This document shows positions 4,525-34,948 of a DNA stretch of 64,000 bases, piece after piece (the first letter of the stretch is position 1; each line of letters opens with the position of its first letter). Below the pieces are notes generated by a model, which was not told the origin of the DNA, made no database searches, and saw only the letters and a program-made list of their open reading frames with translations. Both the position numbers and the translations under genes were made by a program. Origin of the DNA: a virus (Duplodnaviria > Caudoviricetes); the IMG/VR virus record IMGVR_UViG_3300032007_000001; one strand, written 5' to 3'.

Positions 4525-4888
4525 TGGTGGAGATGAGGAGAATCGAACTCCTGTCCGAAACAAGACTTCAAATGGGTCATTACCGCTGCTAGCTGGCTTA
4601 TCGCACCAGTATACGTATAAAAGAAAGGGGGATTTGATGAAAATGGTTTTCTTAATTCTTAAGAAAAGTCCAAAGAAATAGTGGGAATTATCTGAAACCC
4701 AGTAGCGGCTTCTCCACAGTCTTACTGGGGGCTGGTAAAGCGTGGCAGACTTACGCCGGCATTACCTTACGCAGCGATGGCAACATAATCGTTGTCAGTT
4801 ATTTTTTTGAAACGTTTTTTAGGATTCAGTTTCTTCATCCCGCGGAACCTCAAATGATTTCTCATCCCGTCGAAACCATTGCATCCCC
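4525..4888 (-). ncRNA. ssrA: tmRNA; tag (A)DNDYVAIAA* at 4796..4767
   Basis: 5' GGGGATGCAATGGTTTCGAC, 3' T-arm GGAGTTCGATTCTCC..CCACCA; TAACT-GAC resume context; tag ends AA-stop. Confidence 0.93.
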
Positions 4889-14420: not shown

Positions 14421-16325
14421 TTATTTAATAAAATCCAAGAAAATATCTTTAGTTACTTGTTTTGGGTCAAGTACTATATCCCATTCTTCGTCATCTTCTT
14501 TTTCAAATTTAGCTCCGGCCATCTTAAGAACATCATTTAACTTAAGACAACTATTTACCATAGTACGCATAGCCGAATTTGCATATTTTGCTTTTTCTCC
14601 ATACGATGCAGCAATTGATTTACTAATAGAAGAAGATGAGAAATAGAATACTTTCTTTTCTGGGGCAGATACATCTAAGAATCCAAGACTCATACCATTC
14701 TTTTCTATATAATTATCAATGCAGAACTTCATTGTATGAGAATCAATAAGATAGTTTTTGTCTACTCTATCTTTTTCACATTCATCAACGATAAACTTAA
14801 AGTCTACGTGATGTGGTCCGCTATAAATATTAAGAGTGAATGAAATAAGTTCATCATCAACGACGTTATCATTAAGATAATAAGCTTCAGTAGCACCATT
14901 AGGAGCTGGTGCGTCAGTCATATCTCCAGTAAATAATACTTCTCTATTATTACGTTCGTTTTTATAATTGGACCCATAATTATACCATGATACATCATAT
15001 TTTTCAGACTTCATATGCAAATCTAAGTCTGTACGATATCCATTAGTATTTAGCCAATGAACACCAAGTACAACAGTAGGAGGCAATATTATAGAAGAAT
15101 TGAAAGGAATATTATTCCAAAACATCTTTTCAGATGTAGGCATAGCATAAACAAAATTATTCGGAATAAAAATCTTCTTTCCTTCTACATTCTTACGAAC
15201 AGTATCAACGATATTCTTCATAATGACATGAAGCACATCATCACTCACGTTAAAGTCATTTTTATATTCTTCTACATAAGCCAACCCATTCCTTATAAGA
15301 TAAATGATATGTTCTGGGTCATTCCTACGGAAAAGAATACTGTTTGCAAGAGAAATGCGTTTGAAAATTGTAACGTTTTCAAGTTCTTTCTCAAGTTCGT
15401 TAATATCAACATCCTTATGCGTTACGATATCAAGAATTTTTTCTTTCTTCGGCTTATGGTATTTGTCTGCAATACGATTAATCTGATTAATAAAAGTGCA
15501 GAATTGACGATTCCCATTAGCACTATGCTTAAAAGCAAGGAAAATCTTTTTATAGCGATGGAAAATAGAAGCGAGTTTTGTAATCTTTATCTTATAGAAA
15601 TCATCAAAATTAACGTTTGCACTATAAGAAATAGCTCTAAAAGTAGCATCGTTTTGAATAAGCATGGTGCTTTTAGTAGCCTTATAAACCTCATACTTCA
15701 AAAATTCCTCTGCATTTTGAGGAACAGTATTATAGTAGTCATACATCTTGAGACGCATTTCTTTATTTTTAACATTGTCAACGTCTCTACTAAAATCAAT
15801 TTTATTATAGTTGATAATTGTAAATAACTCTTCGACTGTTTTGCTATTCAATGCCATACCAGAATAAAGCATTTTACGAACACGTTCTTCTATATTCTCG
15901 TTTGAGATATAATTAATGATAGTTACTTGAAAAGGAGAATCGTCTTCTGGCAATTGAAGCACTTCATTTGGGATATAAACACTATCTTTATCATAAATAC
16001 CAAGACTTTCAAACCCATAGGTTGTAAAATAATGAAGAATCTGGTCGCGAATCCATTCTTCTACTGATTTATCGGCTACAGAATGAAAAGATTTGTAGAA
16101 ACCATTATTAAGCGCTTCCAAATCATAGCCATACATATCAATCACAGATGATTTAATATCATCTTTTGAATTAATATCAAAATGACTATATGCTTCGTCA
16201 GTAATGAATACACCATTTGAAATTTCATCATGTTTTATGTTGGAAATATCCATTTTGCCAAGGTGTGGGATTGCTTTAAAAAGATGGAGTACTGCTTTGA
16301 AATATTCTTGAGTTTTGGTATTCAT
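14421..16325 (-). CDS. large helical (possible ROT/TROVE-like) protein with C-terminal TerD-like domain
   Basis: C-terminal GVHW..DLDLH..W..FTGDMTDAP..GATE..NIYSG TerD-like motifs; long helical N-part; AGGAG RBS before ATG 16325. Confidence 0.72.
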   Translation of the reverse strand: MNTKTQEYFKAVLHLFKAIPHLGKMDISNIKHDEISNGVFITDEAYSHFDINSKDDIKSSVIDMYGYDLEALNNGFYKSFHSVADKSVEEWIRDQILHYFTTYGFESLGIYDKDSVYIPNEVLQLPEDDSPFQVTIINYISNENIEERVRKMLYSGMALNSKTVEELFTIINYNKIDFSRDVDNVKNKEMRLKMYDYYNTVPQNAEEFLKYEVYKATKSTMLIQNDATFRAISYSANVNFDDFYKIKITKLASIFHRYKKIFLAFKHSANGNRQFCTFINQINRIADKYHKPKKEKILDIVTHKDVDINELEKELENVTIFKRISLANSILFRRNDPEHIIYLIRNGLAYVEEYKNDFNVSDDVLHVIMKNIVDTVRKNVEGKKIFIPNNFVYAMPTSEKMFWNNIPFNSSIILPPTVVLGVHWLNTNGYRTDLDLHMKSEKYDVSWYNYGSNYKNERNNREVLFTGDMTDAPAPNGATEAYYLNDNVVDDELISFTLNIYSGPHHVDFKFIVDECEKDRVDKNYLIDSHTMKFCIDNYIEKNGMSLGFLDVSAPEKKVFYFSSSSISKSIAASYGEKAKYANSAMRTMVNSCLKLNDVLKMAGAKFEKEDDEEWDIVLDPKQVTKDIFLDFIK

Positions 16326-16352
16326 AATTGACATTCTCCTTTCAAAAACGAG

Positions 16353-16388
16353 AAAACAAAAAGCTATCATTTCTTGAAAACGATAGCC
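16353..16388 (-). terminator. intrinsic terminator between RNA array and TerD-like gene
   Basis: GCTATC/GATAGC stem followed by T-rich tract on minus strand. Confidence 0.55.
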
Positions 16389-16402
16389 CAACATTCATTT
16401 AA

Positions 16403-16786
16403 GTATTTGCGAAAAGTAAATAACCCTATTGAAAAGGAACTCTCTATGCAAATACATTAATAACAATTAGGCGAGAAGTAAAAACATAATCTTTATTAAG
16501 CTTATAATGTACAGGAACCCCTTATGCCTAAAATGCCTTTAAGATGCGAGAAGTAAATCACTGTTTTCAAATAACTTGCGAAAAGGAACTTCTTATGCAT
16601 CTGTAAATATACTATTTGAAAAAAACATTTTTGTTTTTAACATTTCATATAAATTATAATATGATTTCATAGAAAGTAAATACTTTTTTATAATACAAAC
16701 AAAAACAAAGCGAGAAGTAAAATCATCTGTTGTATGCGCCATTGCTGGCGCATGTAGTAATAAAAAGGAACTTCTTATGCTTTGTT
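16403..16786 (-). ncRNA. array of four structured RNA units (16403-16455, 16467-16531, 16542-16602, 16704-16786)
   Basis: Conserved GCAUAAGAAGUUCCU..variable..UUUACUUCUCGC; unit-specific complementary closing stems; G-U wobbles only on minus strand. Confidence 0.7.
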
Positions 16787-34871: not shown

Positions 34872-34948
34872 TGGTGGACCCTCACGGACTCGAACCGCGG
34901 ACTACCTGTTTATGAGACAGGTGTTCTAACCAACTGAACTAAGGGTCC
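34872..34948 (-). tRNA. tRNA with CAT anticodon (likely Ile2/lysidine type, possibly Met)
   Basis: Cloverleaf, loop CT-CAT-AA, GGACCCT acceptor stem resembling Bacillota Ile2. Confidence 0.88.

What the first reader, a model, noticed from the sequence alone, without database searches (positions are those of the whole stretch)
14421..16786. Array of four variable-insert stem-loop RNAs upstream of a helical + TerD-like protein: candidate new phage ribonucleoprotein system
Seen: four units (16403-16455, 16467-16531, 16542-16602, 16704-16786) read on the minus strand GCAUAAGAAGUUCCU-[unique insert of about 11-41 nt]-UUUACUUCUCGC. Each is closed by a different but perfectly complementary outer stem (GTATTTGC/GCAAATAC, TTAGGC/GCCTAA, AGATGC/GCATCT, AACAAAGC/GCTTTGTT), i.e. 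covariation. Substitutions in the inner helix (AGGGGU/ACUUCU, GAGAGU/ACUUUU) stay paired via G-U only on the minus strand, which points to selection at RNA level. A constant AUA/C internal bulge is kept. A sigma-type promoter lies at 16653-16680 and a terminator-like hairpin at 16353-16388 separates the array from the gene. Knowledge: proteins with a large alpha-helical ROT/TROVE-like region fused to a C-terminal TerD domain (the Prok-RING_4-associated architecture) have been proposed to act in RNA-processing complexes, and Ro60/TROVE binds Y RNAs through a bulged helix. Inference: these are Y-RNA-like ligands, with a constant protein-binding helix and swappable loops (guides, decoys or adaptors), for the adjacent protein. 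Autoregulatory operator sites are an alternative.
Basis: partly seen in the sequence, partly recalled or inferred. Interest (0 to 1): 0.9.

Follow-up and report, generated by a model that had tools for sequence, protein, structure and literature searches.

The report
Y-like RNAs with TerD partner protein
A giant phage carries four small folded RNAs that share one conserved "handle", next to a gene for an uncharacterised helical-plus-TerD protein. The same RNA-protein pair recurs in about 150 phage and bacterial loci, often beside tRNA genes or the RNA ligase RtcB, so it looks like an undescribed counterpart of the Ro60/Y-RNA particle.

Summary
Four minus-strand units (16786-16403) share the handle P1 / AUA-versus-C bulge / AGAAGU:ACUUCU helix / invariant GUUCCU, and each has a different loop. 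No Rfam family matches them.

A covariance model finds the same handle on the gene's strand, almost always just upstream, in 79 of 80 viral loci and 73 of 80 genome loci that encode homologs of the adjacent 634-aa protein. P2 is 99.5% paired, and 12 of 14 pairs show compensatory changes.

In 12-15 of the 80 viral loci, one unit carries a permuted tRNA-like module (T arm, closed acceptor hairpin, D arm). That is the layout of the bacterial Y RNA YrlA.

The protein has a TerD-fold C-terminal domain and a helical N-terminal domain with no detectable match to Ro60/TROVE. It is a RING-less relative of the MXAN_6230/SCO0854 family. Canonical Ro60 loci lack the handle.

RtcB sits beside the module in Chryseobacterium and in several unrelated lineages.

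My best reading is a Ro60/Y-RNA-like ribonucleoprotein, analogous rather than demonstrably homologous, probably acting on tRNA damage or RNA surveillance. Binding and function have not been tested. This scan has already reported the same system on other genomes. I found no paper describing it.

The parts
16704..16786 (-). RNA unit 1: 8-bp P1, AUA/C bulge, AGAAGU:ACUUCU P2, and a 46-nt loop holding a GC-rich hairpin
   Evidence: MFE -28.8, z -6.8; 72.7 bits
16653..16680 (-). sigma-70-like promoter TTTACT-16-TATAAT between unit 1 and unit 2
   Evidence: 10 of 12 matches; consensus match only
16542..16602 (-). RNA unit 2 (model span 16540-16604)
   Evidence: 67.7 bits
16467..16531 (-). RNA unit 3 (model span 16465-16533); P2 has two G-U pairs
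   Evidence: 74.4 bits
16403..16455 (-). RNA unit 4; shortest loop (16 nt); P2 has two G-U pairs
   Evidence: 63 bits
16351..16389 (-). terminator-like hairpin (13 pairs) plus T-run, between the array and the gene
   Evidence: atypical for the family, where the last unit usually ends about 20 nt before the ATG
16335..16340 (-). Shine-Dalgarno sequence AGGAGA
   Evidence: read from the sequence
15177..16325 (-). N-terminal helical domain of the partner protein (about 383 aa), with no known fold relative outside its own family
   Evidence: (pLDDT 91-92)
14568..15086 (-). TerD-fold beta-sandwich domain with conserved DLDL and SGD..E acidic motifs
   Evidence: Foldseek prob 1.00 to 3ibz, 2kxt, 2qng; Z 9.8 and 8.8
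14421..14567 (-). C-terminal helices and stop codon of the same gene (whole gene 14421-16325, 634 aa)

Best explanation
The four units are genes for small stable RNAs of a large family that is not in Rfam.

Each RNA has two parts. The first is a constant 'handle': the 5' and 3' ends pair as P1, followed by GC, an A(U/A)A bulge opposite a single C, a 6-bp purine:pyrimidine helix P2, and the invariant GUUCCU(A/U)UU ... UUU internal loop. The second is an exchangeable loop module.

I infer that the handle is the binding site of the protein encoded next to it, which has a helical domain plus a TerD domain. Together they would form a ribonucleoprotein built on the plan of Ro60 with its Y RNAs. The protein holds the handle, and the loop module presents a second surface. 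In other loci that surface is a YrlA-type tRNA mimic; here it is four different short loops. It would recruit, or compete for, RNA-handling or tRNA-handling factors.

The repeated linkage to tRNA gene clusters and to the RNA ligase RtcB points to tRNA/RNA damage control or surveillance during infection. That could include countering host tRNA-cleaving defences.

In this phage, units 2-4 would be made from the promoter at 16680-16653. The hairpin at 16389-16361 would end most transcripts, giving more RNA than protein, and read-through would express the gene.

What is shown: the RNA structure, its strand, its covariation, the RNA-gene linkage, the TerD fold, the tRNA-like modules and the RtcB linkage. 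What is inferred: binding, particle formation, the transcription scheme and the biological role.

The confidence of 0.65 is for the whole statement. That the RNAs are the partner of this protein I put at about 0.8, and the Ro/Y-like role in RNA repair or surveillance at about 0.5.
For: 1. Structure. P2 is 99.5-99.7% paired and 12 of 14 pairs show changes on both sides, in two data sets (49 and 132 distinct units). Slid controls give only 35-49% pairing. G-U pairs fix the strand.
2. Linkage starting from the RNA. A pattern scan of viral contigs found true copies, and in 13 loci a 570-660-aa homolog of the window protein lies beside them on the same strand.
3. Linkage starting from the protein. 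79 of 80 viral loci (211 units, all on the gene's strand) and 73 of 80 genome loci carry the handle, nearly always within 600 nt upstream. No protein neighbour is conserved; the most frequent one is in 7 of 80 loci.
4. Specificity. Nine canonical Ro60 loci have YrlA hits but no handle, with a best E of 0.52.
5. Modularity. 12-15 of the 80 viral loci have a unit with a T arm, a closed acceptor hairpin and a D arm. These score 35-50 bits on Rfam YrlA, the same range as YrlA next to true Ro60 in most of the Bacteroidia loci examined (36-47 bits). In L159, L074 and L058 the loop holds an unpermuted tRNA or tRNA-like sequence.
6. Context. In about 23 Chryseobacterium species the order is RtcB, three units, protein. 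RtcB is also adjacent in L214, L237, L134, L135 and the L009 group (L268 shows only a partial tblastn match at the locus edge). In cyanophages S-CRM01 and S-CBWM1 the gene sits inside the tRNA cluster, with units around it.
7. The protein family is large (2219 representatives at 50% identity) and folds with high confidence (pLDDT 92, pTM 0.91).
Against: - There is no direct evidence of binding or expression.
- The protein shows no detectable homology to Ro60 and has no recognised RNA-binding domain.
- The window's own units have no tRNA-like module, and this phage has neither RtcB nor a TROVE protein. The repair link is therefore borrowed from other loci.
- In most loci the last unit ends only about 20 nt before the start codon. 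That also fits a cis-regulatory role.
- The covariation counts come from alignments fitted to the model.
- Many loci are related to one another, so the counts overstate the number of independent events.
Confidence: 0.65

Rival explanations
1. The units are cis-acting operators. The protein, or a host factor, binds the repeated handles in its own 5' leader to control translation or termination of the gene, and the RNAs have no role in trans.
For: In 77 viral loci the last unit ends a median of 20 nt before the ATG, so a bound protein would sit on the ribosome-binding site. The units are almost always upstream and on the same strand. In the window, a terminator-like hairpin lies between the array and the gene.
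Against: - Arrays also lie downstream of the gene (L056, L160, L164, L145; S-CRM01), 1.1-1.7 kb away behind other genes (Phass-1), or among tRNA genes in contig fragments that show no copy of the gene (L063, L074/L058, L009).
- Up to 7 units occur per locus, and each array position keeps its own loop across related phages.
- tRNA-like payloads make no sense for an operator.
- In the window, unit 1 lies upstream of the promoter-like site that would drive units 2-4.
Autoregulation could still be a secondary function.
Confidence: 0.12
2. The handle is a processing or stabilising cassette. P1 and P2 clamp the ends of a payload RNA (a tRNA, a tRNA mimic or a short RNA) so that host RNases cut it out or spare it. 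The neighbouring protein is a maturation factor or nuclease, not a stable partner.
For: The payloads vary widely and include complete tRNA-like sequences. The units sit in tRNA clusters, where RNase P and RNase Z act. Stems that pair 5' and 3' flanks are classic processing sites (general knowledge of rRNA operons).
Against: A pure processing stem needs no invariant GUUCCU loop and no fixed bulge kept across very distant phages and bacteria. Some payloads are only about 16 nt long (window unit 4). The protein has no recognisable nuclease fold. The one-to-one linkage with this single protein family argues for a specific, lasting partner.
Confidence: 0.12
3. The repeats act at the DNA level, as recombination, replication or packaging sites, or as remnants of a small mobile element.
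For: They are imperfect palindromes that occur in tandem.
Against: - G-U pairs and compensatory changes keep the pairing on one strand only.
- All 211 viral hits are on the gene's strand.
- The genome holds no other copies.
- No recombinase or transposase is a conserved neighbour.
Confidence: 0.02

Closest known systems
Ro60 (Rsr, TROVE + vWA) with Y RNAs YrlA/YrlB. Examples: the Salmonella rsr-yrlBA-rtcBA operon; Rfam RF02553; phage versions such as Thermus phage phiLo (PMC4201824, PMC12135203)
   Same: - Several small RNAs are encoded right beside one protein gene.
- Each RNA pairs its 5' and 3' ends into a bulged stem with a conserved 5'-strand motif.
- The distal module is exchangeable and in some members is a permuted tRNA mimic (T arm, acceptor-like hairpin, D arm).
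- RtcB is repeatedly adjacent.
- The system occurs in large phages.
   Different: - The protein is not a detectable Ro60. It has no TROVE match, hhalign probability is under 1%, and fold Z is at most 5.
- The C-terminal domain is TerD, not vWA.
- The handle reads GC-AUA-AGAAGU-UCCU, not GNCGAA(N)G.
- The handle is absent from true Ro60 loci.
- Most units, including all four here, have no tRNA-like part.
- Chryseobacterium sp. KCF3-3 has both systems at separate loci.
MXAN_6230/SCO0854 family RING-domain proteins (NCBIfam NF041916; Pfam Prok-RING_4), found in Actinomycetota and Myxococcota; function unknown
   Same: The whole body of the phage protein superposes on a cluster of this family in the ESM Atlas (TM 0.75 over 607 residues). 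NF041916 matches 8 of 11 members in the TerD core (best E 3.4e-8).
   Different: The phage and Chryseobacterium proteins have no RING domain. Their scores (32 bits) are far below the family cut-off of 600 bits. I did not test whether the RING-bearing forms also have partner RNAs.
TerD (PF02342) tellurite-resistance / Ca2+-binding proteins (PDB 2kxt, 3ibz, 2qz7)
   Same: They share the beta-sandwich fold (Z 8.8-9.8; Foldseek prob 1.00), and the acidic DxD and GD..E motifs are kept.
   Different: Here TerD is one domain of a 634-aa protein, it falls below the Pfam threshold, and it is linked to RNAs rather than to the ter operon.
Type III toxin-antitoxin loci (ToxIN: RNA repeat array, terminator, toxin gene)
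   Same: In the window, the order is the same: an array of RNA repeats, then a terminator-like hairpin, then a protein gene.
   Different: ToxI repeats are near-identical 34-36-nt units without variable inserts, and ToxN is a small endoribonuclease (from my own knowledge). Here the loops differ, the protein is unrelated, and most family loci have no terminator.

Membership tests
Ro60 / TROVE proteins | TROVE domain detectable by sequence (Pfam PF05731) | tested here: not met
   No hit at E up to 10 in 11 family members. No TROVE protein anywhere in the phage genome. The same model does find true Ro60 in control genomes and in Chryseobacterium.
Ro60 / TROVE proteins | Profile-profile homology to canonical Ro60 | tested here: not met
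   hhalign of the 68- and 80-sequence family alignments against 9 canonical Ro60 proteins gives probability 0.9% and 0.5%. The profile against PDB sequences gives no hit.
Ro60 / TROVE proteins | HEAT-repeat ring fold | tested here: inconclusive
   For the N-terminal model: 1yvp_A Z 5.0 (63 residues) and 2nvo_A Z 4.7 (69 residues), both at model residues 296-382. For the full-length model: 1yvp_A Z 3.9 (254 residues, rmsd 7.9). None stands out from unrelated helical repeat proteins. I could not inspect the model coordinates.
Ro60 / TROVE proteins | C-terminal vWA domain with a MIDAS site | tested here: not met
   The C-terminal domain has the TerD fold.
Y RNA / YrlA (Rfam RF02553) | Score at or above the gathering threshold (69 bits) | tested here: not met
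   The window units give no hit at E up to 10. In the own genome the best hit is 20 bits, which is chance level. Long units in other loci score 35-50 bits, as do YrlA RNAs beside true Ro60 in most of the Bacteroidia loci examined (36-47 bits).
Y RNA / YrlA (Rfam RF02553) | 5'-strand Ro-binding motif GNCGAA(N)G (PMC4201824) | tested here: not met
   The handle consensus is GC-A(U/A)A-RRRRGU-UCCU.
Y RNA / YrlA (Rfam RF02553) | tRNA-like module in the order T arm, acceptor-like hairpin, D arm | tested here: not met
   Absent from the four window units. Present in 12-15 of 80 related viral loci. The family as a whole therefore includes YrlA-like members, but this array does not.
Y RNA / YrlA (Rfam RF02553) | Encoded next to, and bound by, its protein partner | tested here: inconclusive
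   Adjacency is met in 79 of 80 and 73 of 80 loci. Binding cannot be tested with these tools.
TerD domain | TerD beta-sandwich fold with acidic metal-binding motifs | tested here: met
   Foldseek prob 1.00 to 3ibz, 2kxt, 2qng and 2qz7. VIA-align Z 9.8 and 8.8 over model residues 416-588. D435, D437, D470 and E482 are invariant in 80 sequences. The Pfam TerD model itself does not match.
MXAN_6230/SCO0854 RING family (NF041916) | Full-length match above the cut-off, and a Prok-RING_4 domain | tested here: not met
   32 bits against a cut-off of 600, covering the TerD core only. No RING domain in Pfam. The body fold is shared (TM 0.75). The phage protein is a RING-less relative, not a member.
Type III toxin-antitoxin (ToxIN-like) | Near-identical short tandem repeats, plus a ToxN-type endoribonuclease | tested here: not met
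   The units differ in P1 and in the loop. The protein has no such domain.

The most novel reading that the evidence does not exclude
This is a widespread, so far undescribed class of ribonucleoprotein, found in large phages and in some bacteria. Its protein is unrelated to Ro60, or related beyond detection, yet it has arrived at the same design: a protein that grips a bulged terminal stem of several small RNAs, whose distal modules (tRNA mimics and others) engage the tRNA-processing and repair machinery. The TerD domain would add a Ca2+- or nucleotide-sensing input. In phages the particle would protect the tRNA pool from host tRNA-cleaving defences, or repair it.
Probability: 0.45. Interest if true: 0.9.

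Novelty: new variant of a known kind. Interest (0 to 1): 0.8.

Why it matters
Ro60/Y RNA is the only known particle of this design, and its bacterial function is still poorly understood.

A second system of the same design would show that the design is a general solution, not a quirk of one family. This one is far more common in phages (over 2000 protein clusters at 50% identity), has a different protein and a different RNA handle, and still carries the same tRNA-mimic payload and the same RtcB linkage.

It also assigns a likely partner and role to a large family of 'hypothetical' phage proteins, and to the uncharacterised SCO0854/MXAN_6230 RING proteins.

It would add a large RNA family to the catalogue. 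It flags small ORFs that appear mis-annotated over these RNAs, such as S-CRM01 g173c.

Finally, it offers cultured systems in which to test it: Chryseobacterium, and the cyanophages S-CRM01 and S-CBWM1.

Tried and rejected
- **Rfam.** At E up to 10 on the region, and at gathering thresholds on the whole window, no family covers the units.
- **Phage DNA search.** blastn of the region against GenBank phages found nothing.
- **First locus search.** The search for related loci with the single protein found nothing. The 11-sequence alignment worked.
- **Protein annotation.** Pfam, PHROGs, PADLOC and PDB-sequence searches of the protein gave nothing useful.
- **Spurious fold hits.** The Foldseek hits to clostridial neurotoxins are spurious (TM about 0.08, rmsd above 30 A).
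- **N-terminal domain.** It was folded alone and searched in pdb, pdb_via_wide and the atlas. There was no clear relative; the best Z was 6.0.
- **Guide idea.** The four loops have no match to the phage genome beyond what shuffled loops give (the first attempt, timed out). The host genome is unknown, so host targets were not tested.
- **Kink-turn, CRISPR-repeat or Racr mimic, retron, attC, small ribozymes.** I considered these from memory and dropped them, because the defining sequence features are absent and Rfam is silent.
- **The FRT look-alike (GAAGTTCCTAT).** This is a coincidence; there is no inverted partner.
- **Ktedonobacter locus L226.** The gene looks fragmented, so I did not use it.
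- **Complex prediction.** Not used, because it does not take RNA.
Full report
**Where the window lies.** The window is bases 1581-65580 of a 504,279-bp IMG/VR virus record, about 27% G+C. It is a giant phage with its own tRNAs and a tmRNA. The closest relatives of the protein studied here (38-41% identity) lie on contigs binned with rumen Selenomonadaceae. That is a hint about the host and nothing more.

**The observation.** On the minus strand, four units lie at 16786-16704, 16602-16542, 16531-16467 and 16455-16403. They all read: variable stem P1, GC, AUA, a six-base purine run ending in GU, UCCU, a variable loop of 16-46 nt, UUU, AC plus four pyrimidines, C, GC, and the complementary P1 strand.

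Each unit folds in this way on the minus strand. On the plus strand, units 3 and 4 lose the inner helix, because their G-U pairs become C-A mismatches. The halves of the motif occur nowhere else in the window, and a covariance model finds only these four units in the whole genome.

The promoter-like site (16680-16653) and the terminator-like hairpin (16389-16361) are both present. The gene downstream most likely starts at ATG 16325, behind AGGAGA, and ends at 14421 (634 aa). No Rfam family matches the units, even at E 10.

**It is a real, widespread RNA family.** A pattern scan of viral contigs gave mostly chance hits, but also true copies. In these the 5' half, the bulge and a complementary P1 are all present, although they were not part of the pattern.

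A first model built from the four units recovered 56 units in those loci. On 49 distinct units, 94.5% of cells are paired and 12 of 14 pairs change on both sides. With the partners slid by 1-3 columns, only 35-49% are paired. A second set of 132 distinct units, collected by starting from the protein, gives the same picture: P2 is 99.5% paired, and one pair is seen as AU 61, GC 26, UA 24 and CG 17.

The invariant positions are the GC/GC clamp, the A.A of the bulge, the single C opposite it, and GUUCCU. These alignments were fitted to the model, which favours the structure. The slid controls and the number of pair types still make chance implausible.

**The RNA travels with one protein.** Starting from the RNA: in 13 of the motif loci, a 570-660-aa homolog of the window protein lies beside the array on the same strand.

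Starting from the protein:
- 80 viral loci encoding homologs were fetched. 79 of them contain units, 1 to 7 per locus and 211 in total at E of 0.1 or less. All are on the gene's strand, and nearly all lie within 600 nt upstream.
- Of 80 loci from bacterial and archaeal genome assemblies, 73 contain units. Four of the seven without units have almost no upstream sequence.
- No other protein is a conserved neighbour. The commonest neighbours are in 7 of 80 loci and are ordinary replication and nucleotide-metabolism genes.
- Cultured examples exist. Synechococcus phage S-CRM01 g174 has about five units upstream and one downstream. S-CBWM1 gp22 has two units. The gut phage Phass-1 has an array 1.1-1.7 kb downstream. 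All three proteins are annotated as hypothetical.

**The handle is specific to this protein.** Nine loci with canonical Ro60 genes from Bacteroidia and one other phylum contain YrlA-type RNAs (36-71 bits) but no handle; the best E, with filters off, is 0.52. Chryseobacterium sp. KCF3-3 has both systems at different loci.

**The loop is a payload.** Most units are 47-90 nt long. In 12-15 of the 80 viral loci, one unit is 105-170 nt long and contains, in order, a T arm (GGUUCGAxUCC), a closed GC-rich hairpin and a D arm (UAGCUCA...UAGAGC). That is a tRNA permuted at the anticodon arm with its acceptor stem closed, which is exactly the layout described for YrlA (PMC4201824).

These units score 35-50 bits on Rfam YrlA, below its 69-bit threshold. 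Most of the YrlA RNAs next to true Ro60 in Bacteroidia score in the same range.

In L159, L074 and L058 the loop holds an unpermuted tRNA or a tRNA-like sequence with an abnormal anticodon loop. Related phages keep a distinct loop at each position of the array. The window's four loops are short, differ from one another, and have no match in the phage genome beyond chance.

**The protein.** The family is large: 2219 representatives at 50% identity, 1177 of them at E below 1e-30. It has no Pfam, PHROG, PADLOC or PDB-sequence match.

The AlphaFold model is confident (pLDDT 92.3, pTM 0.91). Residues 416-588 have the TerD fold (Foldseek prob 1.00; Z 9.8 and 8.8), with invariant acidic residues.

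The helical N-terminal 385 residues have no clear structural relative. The best Z is 6.0. Ro60 appears at Z 4.7-5.0 over about 65 residues, no better than unrelated repeat proteins. hhalign against nine true Ro60 proteins gives a probability below 1%.

The whole body superposes on the MXAN_6230/SCO0854 RING-domain family (TM 0.75 over 607 residues). The NCBIfam model of that family hits the TerD core of 8 of 11 members. The protein is therefore a RING-less relative of that uncharacterised family, and not a detectable Ro60.

**Context that points to function.** In about 23 Chryseobacterium species the order is RtcB, three units, protein. RtcB is also adjacent, on the same strand, in a Desulfobacterales MAG (L214), a Flavobacteriaceae MAG (L237) and three viral groups (L134, L135 and the L009 group). 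These RtcB sequences are only 24-36% identical to the Chryseobacterium one, except in L237 (70%), so the associations are at least partly independent. In Tenacibaculum (L268) only a partial tblastn match lies at the locus edge.

In cyanophages, and in several contig fragments, the gene or the units sit inside tRNA clusters. This parallels the Salmonella rsr-yrlBA-rtcBA operon (PMC4201824, PMC7790460). The window phage itself has neither RtcB nor a TROVE protein.

**How it most likely works.** The protein binds the handle, and the loop module provides a second interaction surface. Several paralogous RNAs would then give one protein several specificities, as Y RNAs do for Ro60. The link to tRNA genes, tRNA mimics and RtcB suggests tRNA/RNA damage control or surveillance during infection. 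All of this is inference from comparative data.

A cis role is not excluded. In 77 viral loci the last unit ends a median of 20 nt before the ATG, and a terminator there is rare (2 of 22 longer gaps). A bound protein could therefore also throttle its own translation. The window, with a 77-nt gap and a terminator-like hairpin, is atypical; there the hairpin may set a high RNA-to-protein ratio.

**Known or new.** I found no paper that describes this RNA family or its pairing with the protein. The two Aravind-group papers most likely to mention the domain architecture are not held.

This scan has reported the same system several times on other genomes, with the same reading. Those notes are not independent evidence, and I retrieved them only after reaching my own conclusion.

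I class this as a new variant of a known kind: a Ro60/Y-RNA-type particle with a different protein and a different handle.

Noticed in passing
L252:1156-4599 (Chryseobacterium sp. KCF3-3, NZ_AP035792.1): A chromosomal operon: RtcB, then three handle RNAs (2656-2705, 2712-2765, 2770-2829), then a 584-aa helical+TerD protein. It is conserved in about 23 Chryseobacterium species. The same genome also has a canonical Ro60 elsewhere (L278).
   Followed up: partly
L195:2791-2937 (S-CRM01 g173c) and L196:6175-6474 (Phass-1 WIC39680): Annotated small 'hypothetical protein' ORFs lie on top of handle RNA units (on the opposite strand in S-CRM01). They are probably mis-annotations. Window ORF 16593-16742 is the same kind of artefact.
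   Followed up: partly
L074:10782-10900, L058:4416-4541, L159:2634-2759: In these units the loop of the handle holds an unpermuted tRNA or tRNA-like sequence. ARAGORN calls two of them tRNA-??? with a 2-nt anticodon, and Rfam tRNA gives 56.8 bits in L159. This is a second way of displaying a tRNA-shaped payload, besides the YrlA-like permuted form.
   Followed up: partly
viral loci L112-L191: The last RNA unit ends a median of 20 nt before the start codon of the protein gene, and there is rarely a terminator between them. This suggests co-transcription and possibly autoregulation. The window locus (77-nt gap plus hairpin) is an exception.
   Followed up: partly
window 4525-4888, 1350-1714 and 34872-34948: The phage encodes a tmRNA (tag DNDYVAIAA), a cluster of four tRNAs (Gln, Cys, Asn, Tyr) and a tRNA-Met. 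The RNA array lies in a part of the genome that is rich in RNA genes.
   Followed up: no
L198-L202, L207 (rumen Selenomonadaceae / Quinella MAG contigs): These encode the closest relatives of the window protein (38-41% identity), each with handle units upstream. This hints that the megaphage infects rumen Selenomonadaceae, or that these contigs are phage DNA binned with them.
   Followed up: no
L226:2914-5846 (Ktedonobacter racemifer DSM 44963): The homolog here is split over three overlapping frames, so it is a possible pseudogene or carries an insertion. One handle unit is still present upstream (2636-2699).
   Followed up: no
G000:C1:373680-373771 (outside the window): This is the only other weak hit of the first RNA model in the genome (19.5 bits, E 0.19). 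It is probably chance.
   Followed up: no
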